From NCBI GenBank assembly GCA_031414595.1, contig JANNVX010000104.1, positions 1 to 23,971 on the forward strand: DNA of 23,971 nucleotides. The letters are read 5' to 3'. The first letter of the stretch is position 1. Each line of letters begins with the position of its first letter. Shown piece after piece: positions 515 through 23,860 of this stretch. Made by a program: the position numbers and the translations under genes. Source of the stretch: Deinococcales bacterium (lineage in GTDB: Bacteria > Deinococcota > Deinococci > Deinococcales > JAAFIG01). The notes beneath the pieces were generated by a model, which saw only the letters and a list, made by a program, of their open reading frames with translations, was not told the origin of the DNA and did not search any database.

Positions 515-573
515 TTCTCGAGCTTCACGCCTAAGCCTTTGCTGTGGCTGCTTGCATTCGCTTCTCGAGCCAG
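515..573 (+). repeat. CTCGAG-bounded dispersed repeat, copy A
   Basis: TTCTCGAGCTTCACGCCTAAGCCTTTGCTGTGGCTGCTTGCATTCGCTTCTCGAGCCAG; about 5 differences from copy B at 1246-1303. Confidence 0.85.
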
Positions 574-613
574 CGCACTTGACCCAAACATCAAGTGCGC
601 GTAACCTGAACCC
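573..613 (+). promoter_or_regulatory. Leaderless sigma70 promoter of vapBC with an overlapping inverted repeat
   Basis: TTGACC (579-584), 17 bp, TAACCT (602-607), 6 bp, ATG614. The inverted repeat GCGCACTTGA-N8-TCAAGTGCGC (573-600) covers the -35 and spacer. Confidence 0.65.
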
Positions 614-832
614 ATGACTCTGCACTTACCACCTCATCTCGAGCAACGCCTCGAGTTTTTGTCGCAGCAACTCGGTAAATCCGAACAAGTTGTGCTTGAA
701 GAAATGCTCGAAACGGCTTTACCCAAAGTTGTGCCGAAGTACAAGCGGGCTTCGATAGGCATGGGAAATTCGGGGCTTGGGAATTTATCTGAACGGGTGG
801 ATGAACTTCTTTTTGCTCGAGATGAACCATGA
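614..832 (+). CDS. vapB: VapB-like antitoxin (CopG/RHH-type)
   Basis: 72 aa. RHH-like N-terminus (TLHLPPHLEQRLEFLSQQLGKS) and a C-terminal GxGNSGxGNLSERVDELL typical of PIN-toxin partners. ATGA overlap with vapC. Confidence 0.75.
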   Translation: MTLHLPPHLEQRLEFLSQQLGKSEQVVLEEMLETALPKVVPKYKRASIGMGNSGLGNLSERVDELLFARDEP

Positions 833-1239
833 TTTTATGCGATACCAGTGCCTTAATTGCGTTTTTAGACCAGAGTGATAAGTACCATTTGCCAGTCAAG
901 GCATTTGCACAAGAACGCCTGATTGTACCGACAACAGTTCTGTGTGAAGTGGATTATATGGTAGTCAAGTACCTTGGTGAAGCGGTTGCCAAACAATTTT
1001 TTCTTGAACTGATGGAAGAATGGGAAGTGCTGGTTTTTGATACCACCGACTTGACTCGAGTCAATCAGATTCGTGGGTTTTATAAGTCTTTGCCACTTGG
1101 TTTTGTGGATGCCAGCCTGATTGCATTGGCAGAACGCTACAAAATTCGGCAGATTTTAACTTTGGATCGCCGTCATTTTTTAGCTGTACAACCTGTGGGC
1201 TTAGAATTTCTGGAATTATTGCCCCAAGACTTGGCTTAA
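829..1239 (+). CDS. vapC: VapC PIN-domain RNase toxin
   Basis: PIN motifs ILCDTSALIA, LCEV, LGFVDASLIALAE, ILTLDRRHF. Confidence 0.92.
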   Translation: MILCDTSALIAFLDQSDKYHLPVKAFAQERLIVPTTVLCEVDYMVVKYLGEAVAKQFFLELMEEWEVLVFDTTDLTRVNQIRGFYKSLPLGFVDASLIALAERYKIRQILTLDRRHFLAVQPVGLEFLELLPQDLA

Positions 1240-1245
1240 AACCAT

Positions 1246-1303
1246 TTCTCGAGCCTAACGCCTAAGCCTTGCCGTGGCTGCTTGCACTCGCTTCTCGAGC
1301 CAG
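1246..1303 (+). repeat. CTCGAG-bounded dispersed repeat, copy B
   Basis: Direct repeat of 515-573, starting 7 nt after the vapC stop. Confidence 0.85.
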
Positions 1304-1327
1304 ACCAAATCGTAGTATTATTTTCCC

Positions 1328-1528
1328 ATGAGTAAACTCGAGGCTGTTCAACAAACCATTTTGGAATTATCGCCGCTCGAGAAGAAACAACTCGAGGCTT
1401 GGTTCGATGAGCAATTGCAATTATTGTGGGATGAACAATTTGAACAAGATGTTCAGACTGGGCGTTTAGATGTGCTTGCCGCAAAAGCCATTGCAGATTT
1501 TGAAACTGGAAATTTTAGGGAGCTATGA
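1328..1528 (+). CDS. Putative antitoxin of a RelE/ParE-like TA pair
   Basis: 66 aa acidic helical protein (WDEQFEQDVQTGRLDVLA) typical of partners of small ParE-like toxins. TATTAT lies 6 nt upstream of the ATG. ATGA overlap with the next gene. Confidence 0.75.
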   Translation: MSKLEAVQQTILELSPLEKKQLEAWFDEQLQLLWDEQFEQDVQTGRLDVLAAKAIADFETGNFREL

Positions 1529-1830
1529 GGCATTTTGCGGCTGCGGATTTCTGGGCGTGTTACGATAAATTACCCGAAGAAATTCAAGCGCTTGCTGATA
1601 AGAATTTTGCGTTGCTTAAAGAAAATCCGAGTCATCCATCGCTGCATTTCAAAAAAGTGGGTGCTTACTGGTCGGCGCGAGTAGCCCGATAGGTGCTGTC
1701 TTACGAGCAAGAAGCTCGAATTGGTAGGAATCAGCGGGCGGTTGCCATTGAAGTTAAATTGGGTTACTTGTGGTTCTGGATTGGTTTGCACGACGAGTAT
1801 GAAAGAATTATCAGGCAAGGTGGGGATTAA
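1525..1830 (+). pseudogene. RelE/ParE-like toxin interrupted by a 39-bp in-frame insertion carrying TAG
   Basis: Hand translation: MRHFAAADFWACYDKLPEEIQALADKNFALLKENPSHPSLHFKKVGAYWS[ARVAR*VLSYEQE]ARIGRNQRAVAIEVKLGYLWFWIGLHDEYERII. Motifs HPSLHFKKVG and WFWIGxHxEY are present. Absent from the ORF track because of TAG at 1690-1692. Confidence 0.88.
1675..1713 (+). mobile_element. Mini hairpin insertion element, copy 1 (39 bp)
   Basis: GCG-CGAGTA-GCCCGATAGGTGC-TGTCT-TACGAG-CAAGA-A. Removing it restores the toxin reading W-S-A-R-I-G. Confidence 0.75.
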
Positions 1831-1831
1831 A

Positions 1832-1873
1832 TTCTTGGGCCTCACGCCTAAGCCGTGGCTGTTTGCGTTTGCT
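1832..1873 (+). repeat. Degenerate copy C of the 515/1246 repeat
   Basis: TTCTTGGGCCTCACGCCTAAGCCGTGGCTGTTTGCGTTTGCT, beginning 2 nt after the toxin stop. Confidence 0.7.
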
Positions 1874-1939
1874 GCCACTCACCATGATTTCTATGGCTTG
1901 GAGTTATGTTCCTAGCTTAACTCTTGGTATACTCGAGAG

Positions 1940-3520
1940 GTGCAGCGACTCGAGGTTCATAATTTGGCTTTAATAGATTCACTCGAACTCGAGTTGAACA
2001 ATGGTCTAAACGTTTTTACTGGCGAAACTGGGGCGGGCAAAAGCATTATTGTGGATGCAATTTGGCTTTTAACCGGCGCTCGAGCCGATACCGAATTGGT
2101 TCGCCAAGGGGCAGAAAGTCTGGTGGTGACTGGTTTTTGGGATGGGGTGATGCTCTCTAGGCGTATCTCGAGCAGTGGACGCAGTGTGGCTCGGGTGGAT
2201 GGTGAAGTGGTCAGTAACCGAGAACTCGCCGATGCTGCCGCCAAGATGGTCACAGTCCATTGGCAACACGCGGCACAGGCACTCCTTGACCCGAAGTACC
2301 ACCGCGATTTTTTGGATGCTGCCCTTTTAGACAAAACCATGCTCGAGTCTTATAAATGGTCTTATAATCTGTTTAGCGACACCAAAACCCGCTTAGAGCG
2401 TTTACAACAATCTGAACGTGAACGCACTCGCCGTATGGATTTGTTGCAGTATCAATTGCGGGAAATCGAAGAAGCGAATCTTGGTGCAGAAGAAGAAGCC
2501 CCGCTTCGGCTCGAGCGTGAGCGTTTACTGAATGCCGAACGCATCGCCCAAGACACAGGTCATGCCCTTGAAGCCTTGGATGAAGCCGAAATCAGTGCGA
2601 CAGCGCTGCTTGGTGATGCGGTCAAATTTCTCAACAATGCTGGGCGTTTTGATGCTCGAGCCGCCCAGCTTGGGCTTGAATTACGCGAAGCCTTATCGAG
2701 TGTCCAAGCCATTGCTGGCGAAGTGCGCGACCTGACCGAAAGCGCAGCCGCCGACCCAGAATCTTTAGATCAAACCGAAACCCGTCTGGCGCTGCTCGAG
2801 AAACTAAAAAACAAATACGGCGCAAGCCTAGCTGATGTTCTCGGGTATGCCACAACCTTGCGCTTGGAATTATCAGAACTTGAACGGGCGGCGACCGATG
2901 CTGCCGACCTCGAGCAGCAATTGGTAGAATTAAAAGCCCGTCTCGAGCAGCACGGACAAGCCTTAAGTGCCGCCCGACAAGAAGCTGCTTTTCGGGTTGC
3001 GCCACAACTTGAAGCGGTGATCCAAAATCTTGGAATGCCCAAAGCCAGACTCGAGTTTATGCTTTTAGCAACCGAATTAAGCCCCCATGGCGCAGAAAGC
3101 ATTGAAATTCGCTTTACCGCCAATAGCGGCGAGGACTTAGGGGATTTAAGTAAAATCGCTTCTGGCGGCGAACTTAGCCGTGTGATGCTGGCACTGTCCA
3201 CCGTGCTAGGGGCAAATACGCCCACCGTGATTTTTGATGAGGTGGACGCTGGTATTGGCGGACAAGCAGCCTTGGCTGTCGCCGAGCAACTGCTGCAATT
3301 GGCAAACTCACATCAAGTGCTGGTGGTCACACACCTTGCCCAAATTGCTGCCAAAGCTGCCCATCATTATAAAGTCGAGAAATTCGAGCAGAACGGACGC
3401 ACTGTTACTCGGGTGCAACGCCTAGACCAAGAGGCTCGAGTCCGCGAACTGGCAAGGATGCTTTCTGGTACGGACTCGAGTACCGCGATTGCCCACGCTA
3501 GGGAACTTTTGGGGCAGTAA
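1940..3520 (+). CDS. recN: DNA repair protein RecN
   Basis: Walker A GETGAGKS, long coiled coil, ASGGELSR signature, IFDEVDAGIGG, VVTHLAQIAA. Extended -10 TGGTATACT 6 nt before the GTG start. Confidence 0.96.
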   Translation: MQRLEVHNLALIDSLELELNNGLNVFTGETGAGKSIIVDAIWLLTGARADTELVRQGAESLVVTGFWDGVMLSRRISSSGRSVARVDGEVVSNRELADAAAKMVTVHWQHAAQALLDPKYHRDFLDAALLDKTMLESYKWSYNLFSDTKTRLERLQQSERERTRRMDLLQYQLREIEEANLGAEEEAPLRLERERLLNAERIAQDTGHALEALDEAEISATALLGDAVKFLNNAGRFDARAAQLGLELREALSSVQAIAGEVRDLTESAAADPESLDQTETRLALLEKLKNKYGASLADVLGYATTLRLELSELERAATDAADLEQQLVELKARLEQHGQALSAARQEAAFRVAPQLEAVIQNLGMPKARLEFMLLATELSPHGAESIEIRFTANSGEDLGDLSKIASGGELSRVMLALSTVLGANTPTVIFDEVDAGIGGQAALAVAEQLLQLANSHQVLVVTHLAQIAAKAAHHYKVEKFEQNGRTVTRVQRLDQEARVRELARMLSGTDSSTAIAHARELLGQ

Positions 3521-3658
3521 GGGGACTCGAGACTCCCGCGCTTGTGTGCTATGCTGCCACTCGGGTGCGAAATTCTCGCGCCAATTTTCTTGTGCTTAAC
3601 GTTTTTAATGTTTGGTACATTGCGAGCGAAATCTTCGCCGCTTTTTTTTGAGGTTGTC

Positions 3659-5446
3659 ATGCAGGAATTCCGTAACATCGCCATTATCGCCCACGTAGAC
3701 CACGGCAAAACAACGCTGGTGGATGGGTTACTTAAACAAACGCATACTTTCCGTGATAATCAAATGGTTCAAGATCGGGTCATGGATTCTAACGCCTTAG
3801 AACGCGAACGCGGCATCACGATTTTGGCTAAAAACACGGCAGTTGAATACCACGGTATTAAAATCAACATCATGGACACCCCCGGTCACGCCGATTTCGG
3901 TGGCGAAGTCGAACGGGTGCTTGGTATGGTAGACGGCTGTTTGCTGCTCGTAGATGCTTCCGAAGGTCCGATGCCGCAGACTCGCTTTGTGCTTAAAAAA
4001 GCCCTCGAGTTGGGACTGCACCCAATTGTGGTGATTAACAAAATAGACCGCAAAGACCAACGCATCACCGAAGTGGTCAATTTAACTTTTGATTTGATGG
4101 CAAGTTTAGATGCCACCGACGAACAACTGGACTTTCCGATTATTTACGCCATTGCGCGTGAAGGCAAAGCCTTTAAGGACTTAGAAGCTCCTAAAGAAGA
4201 CTTAGATGAACTGCTCGAGTTAATCGTTAAGCACGTTCCACCACCGAGTATCGAAATAGATAAGCCGTTTCAGATGCTGGTCACCAACCTTGATTATTCC
4301 GATTACCTTGGGCGTATCGCCATTGGTCGGGTACGTCGTGGCAAAGTTAAACGCAACGAATACGTGATGGTCATGCACAAGGATGGTACACAAAGTAAAG
4401 CCAAAGTTAGTCAGGTCTTTACCCACATGGGTTTAGCCCGTATAGATGTCGAGCAAGTCTTTGCTGGCGATGTGGTGGCAATTGCGGGTTTAGAAGATGT
4501 TGGTGTCGGCGAGACAATTGCTGATTTTGCTGACCCGGAAGCCTTGCCCGTGCTAACTGTAGATGAACCGACGGTCTCGATGACTTTTGGACCAAATACC
4601 AGTCCATTTGCCGGTAAAGAAGGCAAGTATGTGACCACGCGACATATCCGAGACCGCTTATTCAAAGAAGCCATGACCAATGTGGCACTGCGGGTCGAAG
4701 AGGACAGCACCGACGAATATAAAGTCTCTGGGCGCGGCGAATTGCACCTGTCAATCCTAATCGAAACCATGCGCCGTGAAGGGTACGAAATGCAGGTTTC
4801 TACGCCGCAAGTCATCACCCGTGAAATGGATGGCGTAACCCACGAACCGTATGAACATTTAGTGATCGATGTACCCGAAGGCAAAATGGGCGGCGTGATG
4901 GAAACCCTCGGCTCGAGACGCGGCGAAATGCTGAACATGGACAACCAAAACGGACGAATGCGGCTCGAGTATAAAATTCCAGCCCGCAGTTTATTTGGTT
5001 TCCGCACCCAATTTCTGAGCATGACCCAAGGTGAAGGCATTATGAACCACGTTTTTGATGGCTACGCGCCAATTGCGGGTGAAATCAAAACCCGTCAGAA
5101 CGGCTCGATGGTCGCTATGGAAGCGGGTCAGACCTTTCCATACGCCATTTGGAAACTCGAGGATCGTGGTAAGTTCTTTATTGAACCGGGTATCGAAGTC
5201 TACATTGGTATGATTGTCGGTTCTAACAGCGGACCAAAAGACTTAAACATCAATGTCTGCAAATCCAAAAAATTAACCAACATGCGAACCAGTGGCGCAG
5301 ATGATGCGACCACCCTCACACCGGTTTCGCCCATGAGTCTCGAAGAAGCCCTCGAGTACATTGGTGACGATGAACTGGTAGAAGTCACCCCAAAGAGTAT
5401 TCGACTTCGCAAACGAATTCTCGAGCCGAACCAACGCAAGAGTTAA
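3659..5446 (+). CDS. typA: Translational GTPase TypA/BipA
   Basis: [41 protein letters not shown]-terminal KLTNMR and [11 protein letters not shown]. Start set at ATG3659 after a GAGG SD rather than the ORF-track TTG3542. Confidence 0.97.
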
Positions 5447-8034: not shown

Positions 8035-9161
8035 GGATTCTCCGCATAGGCGGCGCGTAATACCTCGGCAACCTCGGGTCTCGAGAATTCGGCGGGCAGT
8101 GGTTCGCCAGCCGCTAAAAGTTCACGTACTTTTGTGCCACTTAACACCAGATGCTCGCCTTTGTCGTGTGGGCAGGTGCGGCTCGAGACGACTGCGCCGC
8201 ATTTTTTGCAGTAGAACGTATGCTCGAACTTGATGATTTCAATGCCAATTTCCTCAGGGCTAAACTGGTTAAAGATTTCTTGGGCATCGTAAGTGCCGTA
8301 ATATGTGCCAACCCCAGCATGGTCGCGTCCGACAATAAAATGGGTGCAACCATAGTTTTTGCGGCTGATGGCGTGCAGTACCGCTTCTCGAGGACCCGCA
8401 TAGCGCATTGCGGCGGGGTACACGCCTAATAAAACACGGTTGCTAGGATAATAGTTCTCCAGCAGCACTTCATAAGCACTCATGCGGGTGGTGACTGGCA
8501 CATCATCGGATTTGGTTTCACCAACCAATGGATTTAAGAATAAGCCGTCTATGGTCTCGAGCGCGACTTTATGCAGGTACTCATGGGCGCGGTGGACTGG
8601 GTTGCGGGTTTGGAATGCCACGATTGTTTTCCAATTCTTCTTGGCAAACAAAACTCGAGTCTCGAGTGGGGTGAAGTGATGCGTGGCAAATTGACCGCGT
8701 GGGACTTCAAAAAGCCAGATTTCACCAGCTAAGTTAATTGGGGCTTGTGCCAGTAATGCCGCCACTCCGGGGTGATTTGGGTCGGTGGTGCGGTAGACCG
8801 CTTGACTTTCGGCTTGGCGGTCTGGGGTGTAACTTTCCGAGACCTCGAGAATCCCGACTGCTAGACCATTTTTAGTGAGTTTTACCCGTCCAGATAAGGC
8901 TTCTTCGACCCCTAAAGTAATCGGGATGCTCCAAGGTAAACCATTCTCGAGACGCATTTGGCTAACAATTCGGGCATGGTCTTGACTGCCCACAAAGCCA
9001 GTCAGTGGCGAATAAACACCTGTGGCAATACACTCGAGGTCGGCATAACTGCGTTCGTTTAGCTCTAAGCTGGGTAAGGCTTCAAGTTCGGTGGGGCTTA
9101 ATCCCAATTCCACAAGACTGCGTACTCGATTGACCAATGTTCCACCGTGGGCTGTATTCAT
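8031..9161 (-). CDS. sat: Sulfate adenylyltransferase (ATP sulfurylase)
   Basis: [40 protein letters not shown], CxxC...CPH zinc site. Confidence 0.96.
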
Positions 9162-12002: not shown

Positions 12003-13028
12003 TTATTTAGCGACTAGCGTATCGCACTGGGCGTTACCAAGTGCCTGCCCAACTTTTAAGCCAAAAACTGCCCCAACATTCGATACCCGCCAAATGGCTT
12101 CTTGGACATCACAAGAAAACGGTTTGACATTATTTCCCGCCAGATTTAGGGTGTATTTTTCAGAACGGGTTGCTTCTCGTTCTGCCCCAATCCCCGAACC
12201 ACTTCTTACATTGGTGAGCGCCCAAACCACTGGAGTCTGAAGGTTGACCCCATTAGAAATCGCACTTCTCGAGTACGTCCAAGTGTTGACCACAAAATCA
12301 CAACGATTGCCGTAAATCGGCTCAGAACGGTACTTGGTTTCACAGACACGGCGCTGCGAGTATGTGCCATCGCCGTTGTCACGGCGCACACTGCGGCAAG
12401 TCTGCCCATCTGCCACTTGCCGAGTAGAGCGTACATCTCGGTACTGACGAACGCTGTACGCCCCAATTGGCACAGATTCACACCAAGCACTGGCTGGGAC
12501 TGGGGCAAATTTCTCGATTTTAATTTCGCGCTGCCAGGCATGACCCGTGACCGCAACTGTGGCTTCTCGAGTTCGTGTAAACCACCAAATCGAACCAATA
12601 ATCAGTACCGCCACAATAATCAGCCAAGACCAATTGCCTTGACTGGGGCGGCTGGTCGGTGCATTGCGAATGGCTTTCTCGGCTTGCTGACGCGCCTTTA
12701 AGTCGTCTTGAACAAACGACTGCCCATCTCCCCTTGTCTGTTCGCCCATTAAACGCACTTGGGCGGCATCGGTTAATGGCGCAGCACAATTGCGGCAAAA
12801 ATCGGCTGACTTTGCATTGGGCGATTTACACGCCGAGCAGATAACATCCGCCCCTTCGGTGGCAGCATCCAGCACCGCCACCGCCTCAGATTCATCGGGG
12901 AAATAACGCCAAGTTGGGTCTTGAGGCGCACCGCATGTTGTGCAATGCCGATGGGTTCGCGCCAGCATTTTTTTATTGCCGCAATAACGGCAATCCCAAA
13001 TCATTTCAAAACGTTGTTCTTCTGCCAT
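12003..13028 (-). CDS. Membrane protein with N-terminal zinc ribbons and a Cys-rich extracytoplasmic domain
   Basis: Four CxxC pairs (CRYC, CTTC, CSAC, CRNC), one TM helix (WLIIVAVLIIGSIWWF), further Cys residues in the C-terminal domain. Co-oriented with the SPFH gene. Confidence 0.75.
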   Translation of the reverse strand: MAEEQRFEMIWDCRYCGNKKMLARTHRHCTTCGAPQDPTWRYFPDESEAVAVLDAATEGADVICSACKSPNAKSADFCRNCAAPLTDAAQVRLMGEQTRGDGQSFVQDDLKARQQAEKAIRNAPTSRPSQGNWSWLIIVAVLIIGSIWWFTRTREATVAVTGHAWQREIKIEKFAPVPASAWCESVPIGAYSVRQYRDVRSTRQVADGQTCRSVRRDNGDGTYSQRRVCETKYRSEPIYGNRCDFVVNTWTYSRSAISNGVNLQTPVVWALTNVRSGSGIGAEREATRSEKYTLNLAGNNVKPFSCDVQEAIWRVSNVGAVFGLKVGQALGNAQCDTLVAK

Positions 13029-13076
13029 ACCACTCCGTGAGCTTTGAACCGATAAGCGACTCCCCTAATTGGCTGT

Positions 13077-14210
13077 TTATTGTGGTGGAAGCGGTGGTGG
13101 AACTGACCCAAAGACACTGCTCAGTTCGGCTACGCCACTGGCTGCGACCCAACCCGCCATGCCATTTTTCCAGACCAAGGTTTCTCTGGTTAATTGCCCA
13201 CCGCGAGCCATGTTTGCCAAAGCTGCCGCATCGAATGGTCCTTGTTGCTGACCGCCAACACCGACAAACCAATCTGCCCCGGGCAGTGGTGGCGGGGCGA
13301 CAGGCGCGGCTTGCGGACGGTTGGCGCTGGCAAGGTTGGCTGCCATTTGCTGCCCAAGCGCCACACCGACACCAGCATCCAAGAAGGCATTGCCACCACC
13401 GGGATTATTGGCACTGGCTTCGATGGCGTTGGCGGCTTGGAATTGGGTGTACTTGCCTAAGTCACCAATCACACCCATTTGTGAGCGCTTATCAATCGCT
13501 TTTTCGACTTCTTCGGGCAGGGTGACGTTCTCAATCAGCATCGTTTCTAAACCAAGACCGTACTGGTCAAAATCGGCATGCAGTGCTTCTTTTAAGGCAT
13601 CGCCCATCTGCGGATACTGGGCGGCAAAATCATAAATACTGATGTTGGCTTTACCGACCCAAGCGGCGAATCTCGAGACCATCAAAGCCCGCAGTTGTTC
13701 GTCCACTTCTTCGATTTCAAAGCGCCCATCTGTACCAACCAACTGCTCGAGCATTTTACGCGGGTCTACAACCTTAAAGGCATATGAACCAAACGCCCGC
13801 AAACGAACTGGACCAAGTTCTGGGTCACGCAGAATAATTGGGTTTGGTGTACCCCATTTTTGTCCTGTAAAAACTCGAGTCGAGAAAAAATAGACTTCGG
13901 CTTTGAAGGGTGAGTTAAAACCATACTTCCAACCCTGAAGCGTGGTCAGAATCGGCAAGTTCTTGGTGGTTAATTCATATGTTCCAGGTCCAAAAGCATC
14001 GGCAATGCCTTTATTGGTTTCTGAACTGGCTTGTTGGACTTGTCCTTCGTTGACAAAAACCGCCAATTGCCCCGGACGAACCACCAATTTAGCACCCGTT
14101 TTAATTTCGTTACCCTGACGTTGAAAGCGGTAGACAAGGGTATCGTTGGAATTATCCAACCACTCAATGATGTCAATGAATTGCCCAAGAATTTTCCCAA
14201 AAATATCCAT
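13077..14210 (-). CDS. SPFH (YdjI/Band_7_1-like) protein with a C-terminal GYF_2/DUF4339-like domain
   Basis: IKTGAKLVVRPGQLAVFVNEG, SPFKAEVYF, KWGTPNP, RAFGSY; C-terminal QQQGPF...TRETLVWKNGMAGW; AGGAG SD. Confidence 0.85.
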   Translation of the reverse strand: MDIFGKILGQFIDIIEWLDNSNDTLVYRFQRQGNEIKTGAKLVVRPGQLAVFVNEGQVQQASSETNKGIADAFGPGTYELTTKNLPILTTLQGWKYGFNSPFKAEVYFFSTRVFTGQKWGTPNPIILRDPELGPVRLRAFGSYAFKVVDPRKMLEQLVGTDGRFEIEEVDEQLRALMVSRFAAWVGKANISIYDFAAQYPQMGDALKEALHADFDQYGLGLETMLIENVTLPEEVEKAIDKRSQMGVIGDLGKYTQFQAANAIEASANNPGGGNAFLDAGVGVALGQQMAANLASANRPQAAPVAPPPLPGADWFVGVGGQQQGPFDAAALANMARGGQLTRETLVWKNGMAGWVAASGVAELSSVFGSVPPPLPPQ

Positions 14211-14947: not shown

Positions 14948-17900
14948 TTATTGTTTATACAACCCCGCCACCAAAGCGTCTATCTCGAGCCGAAGCGCCT
15001 TAAACTGCTCGAGTTTTTGCACCACCACTTGTTCTTGGGTTTCCAGTGCATCCAATGCCGCCACCGCATCGGCGGGGGTGCTTGGTAGCTCGAGTCCACG
15101 GGCTTCAAGGCTGGCAACCGTATCCGAGCCGCAGAGCTTAAATTGTCGCTCGAGCCAAAGCAAGGCGCGTTCTGGGGTTTCGGGCGCAAACTCGAGAACA
15201 ATATCGTTGCGTCCACGAATTAAAGTCTGTCCACGCACTCGAGCATCGGATACAGTTGCACCAGAATCCAGTATTTGCATTCCCCAAAGCATTTTGGCTC
15301 GAGCCAGTGGCACTTTTTGAATACCGAGTGGCAAATGTGCGGGTGCATGACAAGTACCCTGTACGGTGCGAATCACCCAACCCAAGCGCCGTAATCCAAA
15401 GAACTCGAGTCCTAGGGAATTGAGTTTTTGTACCAGTGCAATAATCGGTTTTTGTTGCTCGAGGCTAATGTCTGGAATGGGAATGGGTTTGTAGTCGTCT
15501 GGGTAAAGATTTGTACGGTCACGACGATTGGCTTTTAGATAATCAGAAATGTAGCTTGAATTGAGAATGCCTTGTAAGAATTCTAGGCTAAAATTTACGG
15601 AACGCTGCTCGAGAATACCTCTATCCTGCTTATTCACAGAATCATTGATAGGGCGATTCTCGACACCTTTTAGGGCAATCCACGGCACAAGATGATGGAT
15701 ACTGTGATTGGTGTATAGCCAGCCTAATTCTTGATTTCCTTTGTCTAAAACAGCGTTGGCTTGGTTTGCGTCATTGCTCGAGACGACCATCGAAACCCCA
15801 ATTTTTTGGTTCTTAAACAATTCTGGAAACCTTGCACGACGAATTCTTTCTGGCGCACGCAAACCAGAGCCATACTCGAGAAAACGCATTGAAATAAGCT
15901 CAAAAGGTTGTACGTCACTGGCTTCAATATAGGCGGCGGGATGTTGATTATCTTTTTCTAGCGAAACTAAATCATCTTTTTTGAACTCGTTTGGAAATTT
16001 GATTTCATGAGACTGCAACTCCATTCCAGCACTGATAAAACATATCTCCTCGAGCCTGTGCATTCCTTTTAATTTTTCTTGGGCTTTACTCTGCCGCCAG
16101 ACTTGAATACCTATTTCGCTTTGCTTGGCGGTTTCTTCTTTGCTTAAAACACTTTCTAGGCTTTTGGCATCGGCGGCGGGTTGGGTAAACCAACGGCGTA
16201 GGGTTTTGGCTTTGGGGCTTGGAGGGGTGTTCTGGACAAAAAAGATGGTGTTTTCGACCACCGCATCTTCAAATAATTTGACCCCCGGAAAAAATGCCAG
16301 TTGCTTAATTTGGGTTTTGGCGGTTAGCAATTGGCGGATACTTTCGGTGTACGGCACAGTTTCGATAGCATTTGAGGTAATCATTCCCATTGTGCCGTTT
16401 TTGGCTAACAATTGCCAGCCAAGGGCAATAAATGGCACAAATAAATCCCATTTTTTCTGGCAAGCCTCACGCAAGGCACTGATGGGATGTTCTTCTTTAA
16501 TTTGACGGCGGTATTCTTTTAAGCCCTCACCACCTTCGTCGGCTCGAACATAGGGCGGGTTTGCCACCACATAATCAAAACTGGTTTGCAGTGCCAGTTT
16601 TATTTGTTCGGCTTCGGGCATTCCGCGTAAATCGAGGGCTTCGGCTGTAGGGTTTATCTGCTCGAGTTGGGCGATTTGGGCGGCGTTAGCTTCTGGCTTT
16701 AAGGTGTCGGTGTTAAAAATCTTAAAACGCTCGAGATGAATTTCTTGCCCTGCGTCCAAAGCGGTTTTTATTGGGTCTAGTACCTGAATTAACAAATTGG
16801 TTTCGGCTAAATAACAAGCAAATGGGTTTAAGTCTAAACCGTAGACACCTTGCTGCACCGTCTCGAGTACCAAATTGACTTCTTGGGCTGGAATCTTGCC
16901 CTTGTGGTGTTTTTTGAATGCCCCAACAATGCGGTTGGCGGCTTTGACCAAAAATGTTCCACTGCCACAAGCGGGGTCTATAATCCGTTTGCCTTGGACG
17001 GCATCTAAGCCTTGGTAGCCAACTTGGTCTAGGATATAATCCACAATCACTGGTGGGGTGTAATACATGCCGCTTTCGTGCTTGTGTTTATCTTCGACAT
17101 AGCGGCTGTACAAATGCCCAATCACATCTTGGTCTATCTGCGCTAAATCGAACTGGGCAAAACGGTGCAGTATCCGAATCACCAAATTGCGGTCTGGGGT
17201 GTACCAGTCGTAGAGCAAGCGTTCGCTGTAAAAATGACGGTAAATATGTTGTGCGCCACTGTACGCCATCTCGAGCAGAAAATAAGTGCTTTTGCCTTGG
17301 GCATGGCGTAAATAATACGGCTCGATGGTTTCAAACCAGTGCGCCACACCGCCGTTGGTAAAAATTCTGGGGATAAGGGCTTTATCTTCTAAAATCCGTA
17401 CCAGCAGCATTCGCACCACCAGCACATAAGCAGTTTGGGCGCTAAATTCGCGTTGCAAACGGGTTGGGTCGTTGGTTTTAAGAATAATCGTGGCAACTTT
17501 TGCCACCCAAGCGCTGTAGGATTCGCGCACTTCTATCGCGTCGCGGTATTGGCGCATCAGGTCGTCGCGGTGATTGTGATAACTGCTAATCAGGTGTTGT
17601 AAACGGCTGATTTGTCGCCGCATTTCGGTGCTGATGGTTTGTTGTGGCGCAGCTTTTTTAGTCACTGGAATCTCGAGCAAGCTGCCTTGGGCTTCGGGGA
17701 TAAGGGCATCAAAAACATTTTCTTGGGTTTGGTCTGGCTTGGCTTTCTTGATTTTTTTGGCTTCTATTGGCGTAGCACTGGCTAAGGCTTGTTTGGCTTG
17801 TCGCTCGAGTTTATCAATTAAGTCGCGCTCGGTAAAACGCTCGAGTTGACCTTCCAAAAAATACTTGGTCGCCAGCCAAATATCGCTAATTCCCGCTTTG

Positions 17901-18766
17901 CTGTATTCGGAACTCAATGCCTCCATGCTCTGCAAAATCAGGTCTCGAGCATTGCTGTTTGGTTCGCTTGGCAGCCGTTCTAGGGCAGTTTGGTATTCTT
18001 CAAATTCACGTAAGCGCAGCCGCAACTGAGCGCCGACATCAAATTCGATTTCTTGAATCACAGCACGGGTTTGTTCGATTAAACGTTGCAAAAAATCGGG
18101 GTTGCTGCTCTTAAACTCTGGGTTAAACGTGCTGCCGTCGAGCGCATGAAGTACGCCAGCCTCGGTATGGGTCAGTTCATGAACCAATTTGCCAGCCCCT
18201 GCATAAGACTGCCTCGAGAAACGGTTATAAAAGGCGGCTAAGGCGCTGATGTCTTGGTCGTCTAAGCCAGCCAAGCCGCTTAAACCGTTGCTGTATAAGT
18301 TGCCCTCGGTTCGCCACCGCGCCACCAACTCGAGCAAATCTAGGTCAGCAATTAAAGCTGGTACGGGGTCACGCAGTTCGTATGCCAGCAAGCGCTTGCC
18401 ATTGCATAGTAGTCCTCGTGGCGCACCGTTTGAGCGCATATAGCCCTCGAGTTGCGCCAAGGCTTCACGCTCGAGTGCCAGAATGCCCGATTTTTTATCT
18501 TCGATGATAAAACACGGCTTTGGATAAGTGCTTAAATGCACCAGAAAATCTGGGCGGCGCTTACCAACCGCGTTATCGTAATCGTATTCGGAATCGGTGT
18601 AGCCAAGGGCTTTAATTAAAAGCTGCGAGACCCGTAAGTCGACAATGTTTTTTTCATCGCCGCCATGGTCGGTTTGACTAAAATACTGGGTAAAGGTTTG
18701 GGCATTGTAAAAATCATCTCGAGCCAAATGACCAATAAACTCAGCAATAAATGTTTCGGCGGACAT
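14948..18766 (-). CDS. Fused type IIG-like restriction-modification enzyme (PD-(D/E)xK nuclease, N6-adenine MTase, TRD)
   Basis: N-terminal RRPDF...IIEDKK...QLEGY; MTase motifs GMYYTP, IIDPACGSGTF and VVANPPY; TaqI_C-like region ending GILNS. Extended -10 TGGTAACTT 5 nt upstream of the ATG. Confidence 0.85.
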   Translation of the reverse strand: MSAETFIAEFIGHLARDDFYNAQTFTQYFSQTDHGGDEKNIVDLRVSQLLIKALGYTDSEYDYDNAVGKRRPDFLVHLSTYPKPCFIIEDKKSGILALEREALAQLEGYMRSNGAPRGLLCNGKRLLAYELRDPVPALIADLDLLELVARWRTEGNLYSNGLSGLAGLDDQDISALAAFYNRFSRQSYAGAGKLVHELTHTEAGVLHALDGSTFNPEFKSSNPDFLQRLIEQTRAVIQEIEFDVGAQLRLRLREFEEYQTALERLPSEPNSNARDLILQSMEALSSEYSKAGISDIWLATKYFLEGQLERFTERDLIDKLERQAKQALASATPIEAKKIKKAKPDQTQENVFDALIPEAQGSLLEIPVTKKAAPQQTISTEMRRQISRLQHLISSYHNHRDDLMRQYRDAIEVRESYSAWVAKVATIILKTNDPTRLQREFSAQTAYVLVVRMLLVRILEDKALIPRIFTNGGVAHWFETIEPYYLRHAQGKSTYFLLEMAYSGAQHIYRHFYSERLLYDWYTPDRNLVIRILHRFAQFDLAQIDQDVIGHLYSRYVEDKHKHESGMYYTPPVIVDYILDQVGYQGLDAVQGKRIIDPACGSGTFLVKAANRIVGAFKKHHKGKIPAQEVNLVLETVQQGVYGLDLNPFACYLAETNLLIQVLDPIKTALDAGQEIHLERFKIFNTDTLKPEANAAQIAQLEQINPTAEALDLRGMPEAEQIKLALQTSFDYVVANPPYVRADEGGEGLKEYRRQIKEEHPISALREACQKKWDLFVPFIALGWQLLAKNGTMGMITSNAIETVPYTESIRQLLTAKTQIKQLAFFPGVKLFEDAVVENTIFFVQNTPPSPKAKTLRRWFTQPAADAKSLESVLSKEETAKQSEIGIQVWRQSKAQEKLKGMHRLEEICFISAGMELQSHEIKFPNEFKKDDLVSLEKDNQHPAAYIEASDVQPFELISMRFLEYGSGLRAPERIRRARFPELFKNQKIGVSMVVSSNDANQANAVLDKGNQELGWLYTNHSIHHLVPWIALKGVENRPINDSVNKQDRGILEQRSVNFSLEFLQGILNSSYISDYLKANRRDRTNLYPDDYKPIPIPDISLEQQKPIIALVQKLNSLGLEFFGLRRLGWVIRTVQGTCHAPAHLPLGIQKVPLARAKMLWGMQILDSGATVSDARVRGQTLIRGRNDIVLEFAPETPERALLWLERQFKLCGSDTVASLEARGLELPSTPADAVAALDALETQEQVVVQKLEQFKALRLEIDALVAGLYKQ

Positions 18767-18823: not shown

Positions 18824-19193
18824 CCCATAAGCATCAGGTTAAGAGCAAAAGCCTTTCAGTACGCATAGAATCACAATCAGTCAGCCCCTCACCCGACTCG
18901 CTTGAAGCTCGTCACCCTCCCCCAAAACACGCTTCGCTGGGGGAGGGTTAGTGAGTAGTGTTGACTTCTGTTAAACTTGAAAAACGTGCTAAAAACTGTG
19001 TTTTTTAGGTTTCTAGCCCTCAATTTGAACAACAAACCAAACCGAACAACCCTCTCCCGCGCTTTTTGGCGGGATGAGGGTAACGAGCCTAAGCGAGTTG
19101 GGTGAGGGTTGGAGCGCGGTATGGACAATTCATTGTATGTAATAGGTTTTTATTGTTCTGCACTATAAATTTCCTTAAACTGATGCTTATGGG
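18824..19193. mobile_element. MITE-like element carrying an internal inverted pair of CCCTCACCC-type palindromic repeats
   Basis: 20-bp inverted ends CCCATAAGCATCAGGTTAAG and CTTAAACTGATGCTTATGGG (1 mismatch). Internal inverted units at 18886-18948 and 19049-19108. No TSD resolved. Confidence 0.65.
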
Positions 19194-21928: not shown

Positions 21929-22063
21929 ATAACAAAGGCTCTCTGAAGAGAGCCTTCGCCAAGGGGTTGCCTTGGTATTCGGAAAGTGTCTTTACCGGAC
22001 AAGCCTCGACCTTTGCAGGTAACGTGATGTCATGTACTTGTGGCACATGTCCGCCGCATCAAC
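21929..22063 (-). ncRNA. Candidate ~135-nt structured RNA convergent on the 21404 gene
   Basis: Own promoter, five consecutive hairpins, a terminator with a U-rich tail on the minus strand, and no plausible ORF. Confidence 0.6.
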
Positions 22064-22069
22064 AAGAAA

Positions 22070-22098
22070 AGAGTAGCGAAATTAAAAGTTTTTGTCAA
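22070..22098 (-). promoter_or_regulatory. sigma70 promoter for the candidate ncRNA
   Basis: TTGACA (22098-22093), 17 bp, TACTCT (22075-22070). Confidence 0.65.
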
Positions 22099-22119
22099 GT
22101 TTTTTGTGCCTCGCGCCGA

Positions 22120-22170
22120 GCAAACAGCCACGGCTCGAGGCACAAAATAAAGCAATGGCTCGAGGCACAC
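22120..22170 (-). repeat. Inverted relative of the 515/1246/1832 repeat, with tandem GGCTCGAGGCAC units
   Basis: GCAAACAGCCACGGCT is the reverse complement of AGCCGTGGCTGTTTGC in copy C. Confidence 0.6.
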
Positions 22171-22207
22171 CGCAGCCTTTAGGAATGCAACCAAAATGCG
22201 GGAATGG

Positions 22208-22359
22208 CAGGACAGACACGGGCGACCATGCCCGCAGGTGCGTGTTTAGCGACCCAAGCCCGCAGGTGCTGCTGTAGGGGTCAAGATTGGTCAAGAAGGG
22301 TCTGTCCCTCCAGGGTATGGAAATACGTCAGGTAGGGCGCGACCCTTGTGGTCGCCCTG
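22208..22359. repeat. Inverted REP doublet whose left REP carries two nested mini elements
   Basis: Left REP CAGGACAGACACGG[insert]GGGTCTGTCCCTCC; right REP GTAGGGCGCGACCCTTGTGGTCGCCCTG (22332-22359). Confidence 0.75.
22222..22297 (+). mobile_element. Mini hairpin insertion element, copies 4 and 5 (22249-22287 nested inside 22222-22297)
   Basis: Outer GCGACCATGCCCGCAGGTGCGTGTTTA|TGGTCAAGAA; inner GCGACCCAAGCCCGCAGGTGCTGCTGTAGGGGTCAAGAT. Confidence 0.8.
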
Positions 22360-22444
22360 TGACCGATAATAATTTTTTATGCTGCTTGATTTGATACTCG
22401 AGAACGGGATTTAGGGCGATAGGCAAATCTAACTCTATAGACGC

Positions 22445-23860
22445 TTAACGTAAAGTTATTCCATTTGTATTTATAGATGTTAAATCAGCACTGGGATGAA
22501 TAAATAATGCTTGATTACCAAATACACCAATATTTTGTGCAATATTGCCATCAAATTGGATATGGTCACTATCATGTACTGCGACAGCACTAGAGGGTGC
22601 AAATCCAAATACGCCACCTGAAAATAAAGGCGAAACATTGTTGGTTCGATAGAAACGATTATTAACGACACGGGCTCCACTGACATTAGAGATGAAGAGA
22701 CCCAAAATAGGTGCTGTTTCGATTGAATTATTTTCAATAACGATATTTTTATTGGGTCTACTTCCTAAGAATTGATTTCTTTGGTCTGCACGACTTCCTG
22801 AAATTACGGTAATAGCTCCTAATAACCACTGTCCCCAATCTCGAGAACGATTTCCAATCATAACATCGCGTAATGTATTGCCACGAATTATAATATTTTC
22901 GGCAATGTCACCTTCATAAAAATATCCTGCTTCTGGTCCAACCCAAATACCACCTTGGGTCGTGCGTTCAACAACATTATTTTCGATGCGTTGACGCGCA
23001 CTTCTCATAACAATACCACGTGCTTCAAGATCACGAAATACACAATTCTTAACAACTGCATCGGCACCTGCATGATCTGGCGAAAGCATATAATCACCAA
23101 TACGAATGCCATTTGTTGAACTAAGTGTTACCTTACCCGACTCGACTGATACGACTGTTGTCTCAAGTCTTAGACGCATAGTTGGGTCATAAACGCGAAA
23201 TCGATCATTTGCACGCCAACGCTGCTCTGGAAAAGCGGCATGGTCGCTCTGAATTGTTAAAGTTGTACCTTGTATATTTTCAATTCTGGAAAGCTCCGTA
23301 CCAATATTAATTGCATCATCTCCCGAAAATTCGGTTAAACAATCACTCACTGTTGGACCTACAGAAGTCGAAGTGCTATGTAAACCATCTGCATTTATTG
23401 ATAGCAAGCGTGGAGTATTTGCACCAGAGGGTACTTTACCCCGAGTGATTTGATAATTCAGATATGAATTACCTCCACCTGCTTCATAAATACCAGCCCC
23501 AGGGCTAGAAAACAGGGTAATATTTTCTAATCGAGTTCCAAATGAATTTTCAAGTAAAACAGCTACGCCACGATCTAGCCATTCCGAAATAACTATTCGA
23601 TCACCAACCTCAAATTTTTCAAGTCTTCCATCTAAAGCGTTATACTTAACTCGAGCCAGTCTATTAGTAATCTGGATGTTTTCTGGTGTGGTAAAGACAT
23701 CTACTCCAAAACGTTTAAAATATCCAAATCGGTCAAAAGTATGTATTCTTGGGTTTTTTTCAATAAAATACGATTTATCTGTTGGATAACCAGTATCAAT
23801 TTGCATTTCAAATCCAGTATTATCTGACTCAACTTGGAAAGAGTACACTTTCGTGGACAT
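22445..23860 (-). pseudogene. Right-handed parallel beta-helix protein (GH110-like carbohydrate-active enzyme), 5'-truncated by an IS
   Basis: Repeated I(I/V)xNNx(I/F) turns plus LLSINADGLHS and GDDAINIG motifs. The ORF-track N-terminus (23861-23944) is antisense IS3 sequence. Confidence 0.65.

What the first reader, a model, noticed from the sequence alone, without database searches (positions are those of the whole stretch)
517..23655. CTCGAG behaves as a highly iterated palindrome (about 137 copies in 24 kb)
Seen: a hand count gives about 137 CTCGAG, roughly one per 175 bp, against about 5-6 expected at ~47-50% GC, so over 20-fold excess. Sites fall in all three codon phases (Leu-Glu CTC GAG; x-Arg such as GCT CGA G at 2079; Ser-x such as C TCG AGC at 2167) and between genes, so dipeptide usage alone seems insufficient. 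Established: palindromic restriction sites are normally avoided, and the main counter-example is cyanobacterial HIP1 (GCGATCGC), linked to DNA methyltransferases. Inference: this is a HIP-like motif in a non-cyanobacterial lineage, perhaps maintained by a XhoI/PaeR7I-specificity methylase, methyl-directed repair, or DNA uptake/recombination bias. I recall CTCGAG-rich Meiothermus sequences but cannot verify this.
Basis: partly seen in the sequence, partly recalled or inferred. Interest (0 to 1): 0.82.

Follow-up and report, generated by a model that had tools for sequence, protein, structure and literature searches.

The report
Hyper-abundant CTCGAG palindrome in Deinococcales
The six-letter palindrome CTCGAG occurs about every 175-190 bases in this uncultured Deinococcus relative, in genes and between them, which makes it a denser counterpart in another phylum of the long-unexplained HIP1 word of cyanobacteria.

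Summary
The window holds 137 CTCGAG; dinucleotide shuffles give 3.3. The excess is not local. The 4.49-Mb genome holds 23,235 copies, 24x expectation, and CTCGAG is its commonest hexamer. All 19 genomes of this uncultured Deinococcales family carry 4.3-7 per kb.

The excess survives codon-preserving shuffles (20,420 against 1,994) and is as dense outside genes as inside. Leu-Glu is the most over-used dipeptide. Sites are lost about three times more slowly than neighbouring sequence and are gained anew in separate lineages.

So "HIP-like" holds. The proposed XhoI-type methylase link is not supported. I found no XhoI-family nuclease, no homologue of the phylum's XhoI-linked methylases, and no methylase shared by six sampled family genomes.

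A weaker excess exists in cultured Meiothermus, Calidithermus and Deinobacterium. My best guess is a recombination- or uptake-linked drive.

This scan has reported the same phenomenon before on other DNA, including another piece of this genome. Six literature searches found no published report.

The parts
517..23655 (.). Span holding all 137 CTCGAG copies of the window, about one per 175 bp
   Evidence: one search gives the full coordinate list, with a shuffle mean of 3.29. One search places 111 in ORFs and 26 outside.
1248..1396 (.). Five copies (1248, 1294, 1337, 1376, 1391) in a stretch outside the listed ORFs. This is an example of the non-coding excess.
   Evidence: Genome-wide non-coding density is 5.34 per kb against 0.18 expected.
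2079..2084 (+). Copy in phase xCT CGA G of ORF 1940-3520 (SMC/RecN-like ATPase)
   Evidence: In the genome, 4,005 copies are in this phase.
2167..2172 (+). Copy in phase xxC TCG AGx of the same ORF
   Evidence: In the genome, 4,313 copies are in this phase.
3542..5446 (+). typA/bipA gene with 7 copies, used to trace gain and loss of sites across 16 family genomes
   Evidence: There are 19 distinct site positions and only 1 is shared by all 16 genomes.
8654..8666 (.). Two copies 7 nt apart (CTCGAG-N-CTCGAG) inside the ATP-sulfurylase gene. This spacing is a local peak genome-wide.
   Evidence: There are 100-101 such pairs in the genome, and none at spacing 6, which would create the avoided GAGCTC.
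12572..13671 (.). Longest site-free stretch of the window (1.1 kb), across the zinc-ribbon and SPFH/Band-7 genes
   Evidence: 1.9 and 2.6 sites per kb in these two ORFs
14948..18766 (-). 1,272-aa Eco57I/N6_Mtase (type IIG or PglX-like) methylase gene carrying 26 copies. It is not shown to be linked to the motif and has no orthologue in the five other family genomes sampled.

Best explanation
Layer 1 (shown, about 0.9): CTCGAG here is a highly iterated palindrome. It is a bare six-base word with no conserved flanks that the whole family keeps at about one copy per 150-230 bp. The force acts on the DNA itself, not on codons or peptides. The word is equally dense in genes (all three phases) and between them. 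It overrides codon preference and inflates the Leu-Glu dipeptide. Between related genomes it is retained about three times better than neighbouring same-phase hexamers. It is still being gained independently in different genera, sometimes by changing an amino acid. It is scarce in low-GC, probably imported genes. Layer 2 (inferred, about 0.35): the word is read as double-stranded DNA by a two-fold symmetric protein that acts during uptake or recombinational processing of DNA. Site-bearing alleles are then taken up, kept or copied preferentially and spread through a recombining population. This is a molecular drive like that proposed for uptake sequences, and now for HIP1. Under this reading, density rather than position is what is kept, new sites give little extra benefit close to an existing one, and imported DNA gains sites slowly. 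Methylation may be part of the reading but is not required by the data. The reader protein has not been identified.
For: Genome-wide there are 23,235 copies, 23.9x the zero-order expectation, and CTCGAG is the top hexamer. The reverse word GAGCTC occurs 6 times. Flanks are near-random. Density is 5.15 per kb in coding DNA and 5.34 per kb in non-coding DNA, where 0.18 is expected. Synonymous shuffling gives 1,994 +/- 34 against 20,420 observed. Leu-Glu has O/E 2.22, the top dipeptide, while Glu-Leu is 0.98. Sixty per cent of Leu-Glu pairs are written CTC-GAG, although CTC is 8% of Leu codons and GAG 21% of Glu codons elsewhere. All 19 of 19 family genomes, in 5 genera, carry 4.3-7 per kb. This includes a 60.6%-GC member at 4.2 per kb. 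Sites intact in relatives: 175 of 192 against 71% for matched controls; 177 of 212 against 57%; 90 of 127 against 45.5% (binomial P between 7e-9 and 4e-16). Polarised counts: 16 losses at 134 ancestral sites against 54.6 expected (Poisson P 8e-10). Differences run both ways in balance: 17 sites in G000 only against 19 in G005 only. In typA there are 19 site positions, 1 shared by all 16 genomes, with lineage-specific gains such as ATCGAT (Ile-Asp) to CTCGAG. Allele sharing that conflicts with the tree, and clustered multi-base switches such as TTAGAA/CTCGAG, show that recombination moves sites. Sites repel each other at short range (pair correlation 0.64 at 6-36 nt, 0.87 at 36-66 nt, flat beyond). 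The long genes with the fewest sites are mostly low in GC: five of the six with none are 30-37% GC, the sixth 49%. The ComEC channel is present in 18 of 19 family genomes. Precedent: HIP1 raises transformation and tracks competence genes, while its methylases do not reach significance (PMC13756078, abstract and Discussion read).
Against: No reader protein was found, so layer 2 is an argument by analogy. ComEC is present in 40 of 41 genomes of the order, so it does not discriminate. The groups I take to be Thermus and Deinococcus have no excess or avoid the word. I recall that cultured members of both are naturally competent; no call shows this. Competence alone therefore does not produce the trait. 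Known uptake sequences are 9-12 nt and not palindromic (recalled). Gains from one-off precursors were only 3 against 1.28 expected (P 0.14). An elevated gain rate, which a drive predicts, is therefore not shown. What is shown is reduced loss, which ordinary purifying selection for any cis function would also give. Gene calls are ORF proxies, and the 'non-coding' class includes small genes.
Confidence: 0.4

Rival explanations
1. Methylation-linked repair ratchet (Elhai's model for HIPs). A methylase marks CTCGAG or its TCGA core, and a methyl-directed mismatch-repair step preserves mutations that create the word and repairs those that destroy it. Sites then accumulate as a by-product or to serve strand discrimination.
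For: The word is a classic type II target. HIP1 and the alternate hexamer HIPs of cyanobacteria go with cognate methylases (PMC4390886, abstract and section 3.4 read). As with HIP1, the inner core is not over-used outside the full word: there are 10,239 TCGA outside CTCGAG. One-off variants are commonest at the outer positions (5,263 against 3,181 and 3,548, summed). G000 carries many methylases of unknown specificity: 9 Eco57I-type matches, 5 C5 matches and 9 N4/N6 matches. CTCGAG methylation is reported in hot-spring community genomes (bioRxiv 10.64898/2026.06.24.734251, passages read).
Against: No methylase orthologue is shared by the six family genomes sampled. G010 has 0 C5 matches and the single-contig G013 has 0 PF01555 matches. 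G006 and G013 share none. C5 enzymes are only 25-37% identical, apart from one G000/G006 pair at 75%. D12 enzymes fall into unrelated groups that fit GATC systems. The XhoI-linked methylases of the phylum have no close homologue in the family, and elsewhere their presence does not track site density. Vsr was not found in G000. Density is about five times the roughly 1 per kb at which Elhai's model saturates.
Confidence: 0.25
2. Cis-acting structural or regulatory word under ordinary selection. An abundant sequence-specific nucleoid or chromosome-organising protein binds CTCGAG, and cells benefit from a dense, fairly even supply of sites.
For: Loss is reduced without a proven excess of gains. 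Density is even over 5-kb windows (mean 26, sd 6.5, against a Poisson sd of 5.1). Gaps of 400-800 nt are fewer than exponential (2,396 against 2,854 for gaps over 400). Sites repel each other at short range.
Against: No periodicity other than 3 nt appears, unlike the quasi-periodic HIP1. No candidate protein is known. Extension of the word to an 8-bp palindrome is disfavoured (0.188 against 0.257). The idea does not explain why imported DNA is tolerated with almost no sites.
Confidence: 0.17
3. Self-marking against a translocating nuclease (Chi-like). Dense sites protect the cell's own DNA from degradation, while foreign DNA with about one site per 4-5 kb is destroyed. A palindrome would work from either end.
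For: Foreign-looking low-GC genes lack sites. Many defence genes are present, and other palindromes are avoided to an extreme degree.
Against: RecC is found in 0 of 41 genomes of the order. AddAB-type nuclease domains occur throughout the order but only patchily in the family (12 of 18), and G000 shows only a 256-aa match. There is therefore no family-specific reader.
Confidence: 0.06
4. By-product of codon, dipeptide or base-composition bias, of a dispersed repeat, or a frozen relic of a GC-rich ancestor in which CTC and GAG were preferred codons.
For: Fifty-nine per cent of coding sites are CTC-GAG. GC-rich relatives show about 1 per kb from codon usage alone, with the GAGCTC control similar in the probable Thermus group.
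Against: There is a 10-fold excess over protein- and codon-preserving shuffles. Non-coding density is equal to coding density. Flanks are unique. Gains are lineage-specific, including ones that change amino acids. Sites are conserved above background. The excess is present at both 47% and 60.6% GC.
Confidence: 0.03

Closest known systems
HIP1 (GCGATCGC) of cyanobacteria
   Same: A short GC-rich palindrome far above expectation across a whole clade. It occurs in coding and non-coding DNA, overrides codon choice, and is conserved above background. Its inner core is not over-used outside the full word, and its function is unresolved (PMC4390886; PMC5861425, abstract only; PMC13756078).
   Different: Six bases rather than eight. 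A different phylum (Deinococcota). About five times denser, at one per 150-230 bp against about one per kb. No conserved cognate orphan methylase was found. No quasi-periodic spacing appears beyond the codon period.
Alternate hexamer HIPs of single cyanobacteria (GGCGCC, GCCGGC, GCsGC; Elhai 2015, section 3.4)
   Same: Hexamer palindromes that are hyper-abundant in a genome.
   Different: Those are sporadic, occur in single strains, and each goes with a methylase of that specificity. Here a whole family of five genera shares the word and no shared methylase is seen.
DNA uptake sequences (DUS of Neisseria, USS of Pasteurellaceae; recalled from memory)
   Same: Genome-wide over-represented words thought to be maintained by uptake bias plus recombination. 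They occur in both orientations, in genes and between them, and turn over among relatives.
   Different: Those are 9-12 nt, not palindromic, occur about once per kb, and have known or suspected receptors. No uptake bias has been tested here.
Vsr-driven excess of CCWGG in E. coli (recalled from memory)
   Same: A repair activity tied to a methylase target shifts word frequencies genome-wide.
   Different: The effect there is below two-fold. No Vsr was found in G000.
XhoI/PaeR7I restriction-modification target
   Same: The same six bases.
   Different: Restriction targets are normally avoided, whereas here the word is 24-fold enriched. No XhoI-family nuclease is present in the family.

Membership tests
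Highly iterated palindromes (HIP) | A short palindrome many-fold above expectation throughout the genome | tested here: met
   23,235 copies, 23.9x expectation, and the top hexamer. All contigs over 3 kb carry 2.3-8.6 per kb.
Highly iterated palindromes (HIP) | Excess not explained by codon or peptide usage, and present in non-coding DNA | tested here: met
   20,420 observed against 1,994 +/- 34 in synonymous shuffles. Non-coding density is 5.34 per kb against 0.18 expected.
Highly iterated palindromes (HIP) | Shared by a clade, with sites conserved above background | tested here: met
   19 of 19 family genomes. 91%, 83.5% and 71% of sites are intact against 71%, 57% and 45.5% of controls. 16 losses against 54.6 expected.
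Highly iterated palindromes (HIP) | A cognate (orphan) DNA methylase is present wherever the HIP is abundant (Elhai 2015) | tested here: not met
   No methylase cluster is shared by the 6 of 19 family genomes sampled, among 63 ORFs clustered. D12 enzymes were searched in all 19 and fall into unrelated groups. Specificity cannot be read from sequence, so a set of non-orthologous CTCGAG methylases is not excluded.
Highly iterated palindromes (HIP) | The motif is methylated in vivo | not testable with these tools
   Only assembled contigs of short-read runs were on offer.
Highly iterated palindromes (HIP) | Quasi-periodic spacing (Xu et al. 2018, abstract; Rodriguez-Cruz et al. 2026, abstract) | tested here: not met
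   Only the 3-nt period appears, together with short-range repulsion and a flat pair correlation beyond about 66 nt.
XhoI/PaeR7I-type restriction-modification system | An XhoI-family endonuclease gene (PF04555) | tested here: not met
   0 of 19 family genomes and 4 of 201 in the phylum sample. Other isoschizomer families were not searched.
XhoI/PaeR7I-type restriction-modification system | A methylase homologous to those beside XhoI-family nucleases | tested here: not met
   The best matches in the family are 23-28% identical. These are generic matches only.
DNA uptake sequences | Preferential uptake of DNA that carries the word | not testable with these tools
   This needs transformation assays. 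ComEC is present in 18 of 19 family genomes, but also in 22 of 22 other genomes of the order.
Chi-type recombination signals | A RecBCD or AddAB reader specific to the lineage, and an oriented, non-palindromic word | tested here: not met
   RecC is in 0 of 41 genomes. PDDEXK_1 is patchy in the family and general in the order. The word is palindromic.
Dispersed repeats (REP/MITE) | Conserved sequence around each copy | tested here: not met
   Flank composition from -6 to +6 is near background.

The most novel reading that the evidence does not exclude
Deinococcota possess a machinery, independent of any conserved methylase, that writes and keeps one six-base palindrome in their chromosomes. It would be a recombination- or uptake-coupled motif drive. 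It is turned up to the highest density known for any bacterial word in one uncultured family, runs at about half that strength in Meiothermus, Calidithermus and Deinobacterium, and is reversed into avoidance in the probable Deinococcus group.
Probability: 0.3. Interest if true: 0.9.

Novelty: new variant of a known kind. Interest (0 to 1): 0.78.

Why it matters
HIP1 has resisted explanation for three decades, partly because it is confined to one phylum, so comparison has little power. A second, independent and denser iterated palindrome in Deinococcota gives that comparison. The word here is strong enough to make Leu-Glu the most over-used dipeptide and to change residues in conserved proteins. 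The phylum shows a gradient: 5-7 per kb in the uncultured family, 2-3.5 per kb in cultured Meiothermus, Allomeiothermus, Calidithermus and Deinobacterium, none in the probable Thermus group, and avoidance in the probable Deinococcus group. This makes the question testable with methylomes, XhoI digests, transformation assays, pull-downs and phylogenetic profiling. The lack of a shared methylase argues that methylation is not the universal cause of such words. On the practical side, the word distorts codon statistics, gene finders and HGT detection for these genomes, and it marks native against imported DNA.

Tried and rejected
1. Codon, dipeptide and composition bias were rejected.

2. A dispersed repeat was rejected because the flanks are unique.

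3. An XhoI-family nuclease was not found in the family.

4. The C4 contig methylase (663 aa, with a TaqI_C domain) and its adjacent 246-aa PD-ExK-like gene were considered as the CTCGAG system. This is a widely transferred pair, with homologues 50-74% identical in Betaproteobacteria MAGs and few close relatives. It is absent from the other five family genomes sampled. Its specificity is unknown.

5. The D12 methylases were considered. One group sits beside a MutH-like gene in a genome where GATC is at 0.14 of expectation. Another looks orphan in a genome where GATC is not avoided. Both fit GATC rather than CTCGAG.

6. Chi-like reading by RecBCD or AddAB has no lineage-specific reader.

7. Long-range or helical periodicity was not found.

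8. Extension of the word to an 8-bp palindrome is disfavoured.

9. A methylation proxy from raw long reads was not possible. Only Logan contigs were listed, no RNA holder was listed, and read laying was not run.

10. Six literature searches found no report of CTCGAG enrichment in Deinococcota: CTCGAG with highly iterated palindrome; CTCGAG, over-represented, Deinococc and palindrom; the HIP terms; Meiothermus with CTCGAG; Meiothermus with methylome; and XhoI, over-represented and Thermus. Supplementary tables of the epigenome preprint and the HIP papers could not be seen. They may list methylated motifs for Deinococcota genomes.

11. One earlier scan note on this phenomenon is flagged 'part of it fell'. 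I could not learn which part.


Full report
OBSERVATION. The window holds exactly 137 CTCGAG, from 517 to 23655. One hundred dinucleotide-preserving shuffles gave a mean of 3.29 and a maximum of 10. GC content is 42-52% along the window. In 18 major ORFs, 111 sites fall 72/23/16 in the phases CTC|GAG, xCT|CGA|G and xxC|TCG|AGx. The other 26 lie outside these ORFs, at 6.05 per kb, against 5.64 per kb inside. Synonymous-codon shuffling of the window's ORFs gives 10.7 +/- 2.8 (maximum 20 of 200) against 111 observed.

GENOME AND CLADE. The window is contig C104 of a 4.49-Mb, 120-contig, 47.2%-GC assembly that is 94% complete. The genome holds 23,235 CTCGAG, 23.9 times the zero-order expectation, and this is its commonest hexamer. 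The same letters read backwards, GAGCTC, occur 6 times. Every contig over 3 kb has 2.3-8.6 sites per kb. Positions -6 to +6 around the word are close to background, so the word is a true hexamer and not the core of a repeat. Extension to an 8-bp palindrome is disfavoured: the +/-1 flanks are complementary in 0.188 of cases against 0.257 expected. CTCGAG accounts for 69% of all TCGA. The other three palindromic NTCGAN words are nearly absent: ATCGAT 89, GTCGAC 26, TTCGAA 29.

All 18 other genomes of the same family (5 genera, 57-94% complete) carry 4.3-7 sites per kb. TypA places the family. The closest records (85-99% identity) are titled Deinococcales or Deinococcota bacterium MAGs, and the nearest named genus is Truepera at 67%. 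A family member with 60.6% GC in a 20-kb sample still has 4.2 sites per kb, and 6.7 per kb outside ORFs. The trait therefore does not depend on base composition.

NOT A CODING BY-PRODUCT. I used 3,866 non-overlapping ORFs of at least 100 aa as proxy genes, covering 3.97 Mb. Coding DNA has 5.15 sites per kb. The remaining 0.53 Mb has 5.34 per kb, against 0.18 expected from its composition. Shuffling synonymous codons within each gene keeps protein and codon usage and gives 1,994 +/- 34 sites against 20,420 observed. Shuffling codon order gives 928 +/- 27. Leu-Glu is the most over-used dipeptide (O/E 2.22; Glu-Leu 0.98). Sixty per cent of Leu-Glu pairs are written CTC-GAG, although CTC is 8% of Leu codons and GAG 21% of Glu codons in other contexts.

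TURNOVER AND CONSERVATION. I made a codon alignment of typA from 16 of the 19 family genomes. G001, G005 and G011 were left out for lack of a full-length locus. The alignment has 19 distinct site positions and only one is shared by all 16. Most are patchy. Several are lineage-specific gains that change the protein, for example ATCGAT or ATTGAT (Ile-Asp) to CTCGAG (Leu-Glu), and TTCGAG (Phe-Glu) to CTCGAG.

I then aligned 52,271 bases of G000 to pieces of three congeners. The bases were window 1940-14210 and two 20-kb stretches of contigs C88 and C98. The congeners were G005 (32,688 bases covered, 93.7% identity), G001 (34,522 bases, 90.6%) and G004 (21,212 bases, 86.5%). Sites intact in the relative were 175 of 192, 177 of 212 and 90 of 127. 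Same-phase control hexamers within 60 nt were intact in 71.0%, 57.4% and 45.5% of cases. Binomial P values run from 7e-9 to 4e-16, and loss-rate ratios are 0.27-0.44.

With G001 as outgroup, 134 ancestral sites show 16 losses against 54.6 expected from codon-position-specific background rates (P 8e-10). At 37 ancestral one-off hexamers there are 3 gains against 1.28 expected (P 0.14), plus 4 gains from words two or more letters away. Differences run both ways in balance: 17 sites in G000 only and 19 in G005 only. About half of the differences are clustered multi-base switches, such as TTAGAA/CTCGAG at a conserved Leu-Glu. Some alleles are shared against the presumed tree, which points to recombination between lineages. 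Reduced loss is thus shown. Raised gain is suggested but not shown.

DISTRIBUTION ALONG THE DNA. The pair correlation is 0.64 at 6-36 nt and 0.87 at 36-66 nt, then flat at about 1.04 out to 1.5 kb. The only period is 3 nt. Spacing 6 never occurs, because it would create GAGCTC. Spacing 7 is a local peak with 100-101 pairs, 81 of them in ORFs, and any base in the middle. Gaps of 400-800 nt are fewer than exponential. Gaps over 1.5 kb are more frequent (42 against 9) and lie in site-poor stretches. Of the six long genes without any site, five have 30-37% GC (the sixth 49%), and most other site-poor long genes are below the genome's 47%, which suggests recent import.

THE METHYLASE QUESTION. G000 has 9 matches to Eco57I-type, 5 to C5, 9 to N4/N6 (one below cut-off) and 1 to D12 methylase families. 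It has no match to Vsr.

The XhoI nuclease family is found in 0 of 19 family genomes and in 4 of 201 genomes of a phylum sample. Where it occurs, it sits beside a gamma-class methylase (G031, where the nuclease is broken) or a 340-aa beta-class methylase (G021 and G033). Neither has a homologue above about 28% identity in G000 or in five other family genomes. The gamma type occurs without the nuclease in 13 of 201 genomes. These include 4 of 18 Meiothermus-group genomes and 3 of 3 Calidithermus-group genomes. Its presence does not track site density.

I took all matches to four methylase families in six family genomes: G000, G006, G009, G010, G011 and G013. These cover four of five genera and are 91-94% complete. 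Clustering 63 ORFs, with second loci of the same gene dropped, gave no cluster holding all six genomes. The two widest clusters hold four genomes each. One is type I HsdM. The other is a loose C5 group whose members are 25-37% identical. G010 has no C5 match. The single-contig G013 has no N4/N6 match. G006 and G013 share nothing.

D12 enzymes occur in 18 of 19 genomes but in unrelated groups. One of the ten fetched loci gave a wrong ORF and was uninformative. The G000 D12 enzyme is followed by a MutH-like gene, and GATC is at 0.14 of expectation, so this is a GATC restriction system. The orphan-looking D12 enzyme of G013 sits in a genome sample with GATC at 132 against 71 expected.

A conserved cognate methylase, which is a defining companion of HIPs in Elhai's survey, is therefore not found. 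This does not exclude non-orthologous enzymes of the same specificity, unknown methylase families, or genes missed in incomplete genomes.

THE PHYLUM GRADIENT. The survey covered 201 genomes that are at least 90% complete. The 83 genomes of genus g7 hold only 26-1,010 sites each. I take g7 to be Deinococcus on the basis of species number, genome size and 66% GC in one sample; no call names it. The 30 genomes of g9, probably Thermus, hold 1,455-2,803 sites, close to the GAGCTC control of 1,113-2,680.

Genera g13, g18 and g19 hold 3,336-18,927 sites (1.4-3.5 per kb) against controls of 278-4,391. G196 holds 13,562 against 1,197. Several f2 genera hold 2-2.6 per kb with controls of 73-1,930. Exact protein look-ups name these genomes. 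G090 (g18) is Meiothermus sp., in a cluster with Allomeiothermus silvanus. G198 (g13) is Meiothermus sp. G181 (g19) is Calidithermus chliarophilus. G196 is Deinobacterium chartae.

In samples of up to 20 kb (the G198 piece was 6 kb), coding sites exceed synonymous shuffles about three-fold: 39 against 11.7, 53 against 16.3, 20 against 5.5 and 30 against 10.5. DNA outside ORFs holds 1.9-3.2 sites per kb where the sample was large enough to judge (the 6-kb G198 piece left only 420 nt outside ORFs), against about 0.34 expected. The Thermus-like sample shows no excess (15 against 22), and the Deinococcus-like sample has 0 sites against 3.7. The gene calls in these GC-rich samples are rough.

MECHANISM. 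What is shown is a DNA-level force that retains the word and allows new copies anywhere the sequence can bear them. What reads the word is unknown.

I rank a recombination- or uptake-coupled drive first, at about 0.35. It fits six observations: equal density in and out of genes, balanced turnover, movement of sites by recombination, few sites in imported DNA, saturation at short range, and the retained ComEC channel (18 of 19 family genomes). It also matches current thinking on HIP1, which raises transformation and tracks competence genes while its methylases do not reach significance (PMC13756078, abstract and Discussion read). Against it, ComEC is universal in the order. The probable Thermus and Deinococcus groups, which I recall include naturally competent species, lack the trait. 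An elevated gain rate is not demonstrated.

Elhai's methyl-directed repair ratchet comes second, at about 0.25 (PMC4390886, section 3.4). It fits the core and flank statistics, but it lacks its methylase, and the density here is five times its predicted saturation.

A structural binding word (about 0.17) and a Chi-like self-mark (about 0.06) follow. The latter has RecC in 0 of 41 genomes and AddAB-type domains that are not lineage-specific. Coding bias, dispersed repeat or frozen relic together get about 0.03.

PRIOR KNOWLEDGE. Earlier notes of this scan describe the same phenomenon on another piece of this genome and in at least six related genomes. One of those notes is flagged 'part of it fell', for a reason I could not see. 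Six literature searches found no report of CTCGAG enrichment in Deinococcota. One preprint reports CTCGAG among the methylated motifs of hot-spring community genomes, but in the passages I read it does not tie the motif to Deinococcota.

VERDICT. It is a new variant of the HIP kind: another phylum, a hexamer, the highest density known, and no conserved methylase. Restriction-type explanations are excluded by gene content. Loss is quantified at about three-fold below background. The spacing statistics are described. A phylum-wide gradient reaches cultured genera.

Noticed in passing
whole genome G000: Many other palindromes are avoided to an extreme degree. GGCC occurs 152 times against about 13,950 expected. 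TGCGCA occurs 2 times, GGCGCC 3, CGATCG 3, GAGCTC 6, and GATC is at 0.14 of expectation. About 40 of the 64 palindromic hexamers are below 0.3 of expectation. This is far stronger than usual restriction avoidance.
   Followed up: partly
window 14948-18766 (-), with 19329-20048, 20397-20810 and 20815-21333: A 1,272-aa Eco57I/N6_Mtase protein (type IIG or PglX-like) lies next to an AAA_21/AbiEii-type ATPase and a Gp49(HigB-like)/HTH pair. This looks like a small defence island. The methylase has no orthologue in five other family genomes.
   Followed up: partly
window about 10521-10634 (intergenic, between 10323 and 10628): A roughly 100-nt element has copies 76-92% identical on contig C32 and in G001 and G003, 72% in G007, with short exact (31-nt) matches on C36 and C62. 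It looks like a MITE or REP-type repeat.
   Followed up: no
G000 contig C4, L011:6799-8790 and 8790-9530: A 663-aa HTH plus gamma-methylase (TaqI_C domain) overlaps a 246-aa gene with a D...EVK motif that matches no Pfam or NCBIfam family. Over 4,000 homologues of the small protein exist, up to 74% identical in Betaproteobacteria MAGs. It is probably an uncharacterised restriction endonuclease family. Both genes are full of CTCGAG (15 and 6 copies).
   Followed up: partly
G000 contig C1, L134:1297-2268 and 2253-2876: A D12-class methylase is followed by a 207-aa MutH-family protein in a genome that strongly avoids GATC. This is probably a GATC restriction system rather than methyl-directed repair.
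   Followed up: partly
genome-wide; window 8654-8666: CTCGAG-N-CTCGAG (spacing 7) is a sharp local peak of 100-101 pairs with any middle base, while spacings 8-20 are depleted. No explanation was found.
   Followed up: partly
phylum sample: The methylase type that sits beside an XhoI-family nuclease in G031 occurs without that nuclease in 12 other genomes. These include 4 of 18 Meiothermus-group, 3 of 3 Calidithermus-group and 3 of 3 g31 genomes. They are candidate orphan methylases.
   Followed up: partly
window 7276-10323 (-): A sulfate-assimilation operon is present: TauE/SafE exporter, ATP sulfurylase, PAPS reductase and APS kinase. It is ordinary, and it holds 21 CTCGAG.
   Followed up: no
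G000 against G005, G001 and G004 alignments: Site alleles are shared against the presumed tree. For example, G000 and G004 share TTCTAA where G005 and G001 have CTCGAG. This suggests frequent recombination among these populations.
   Followed up: partly
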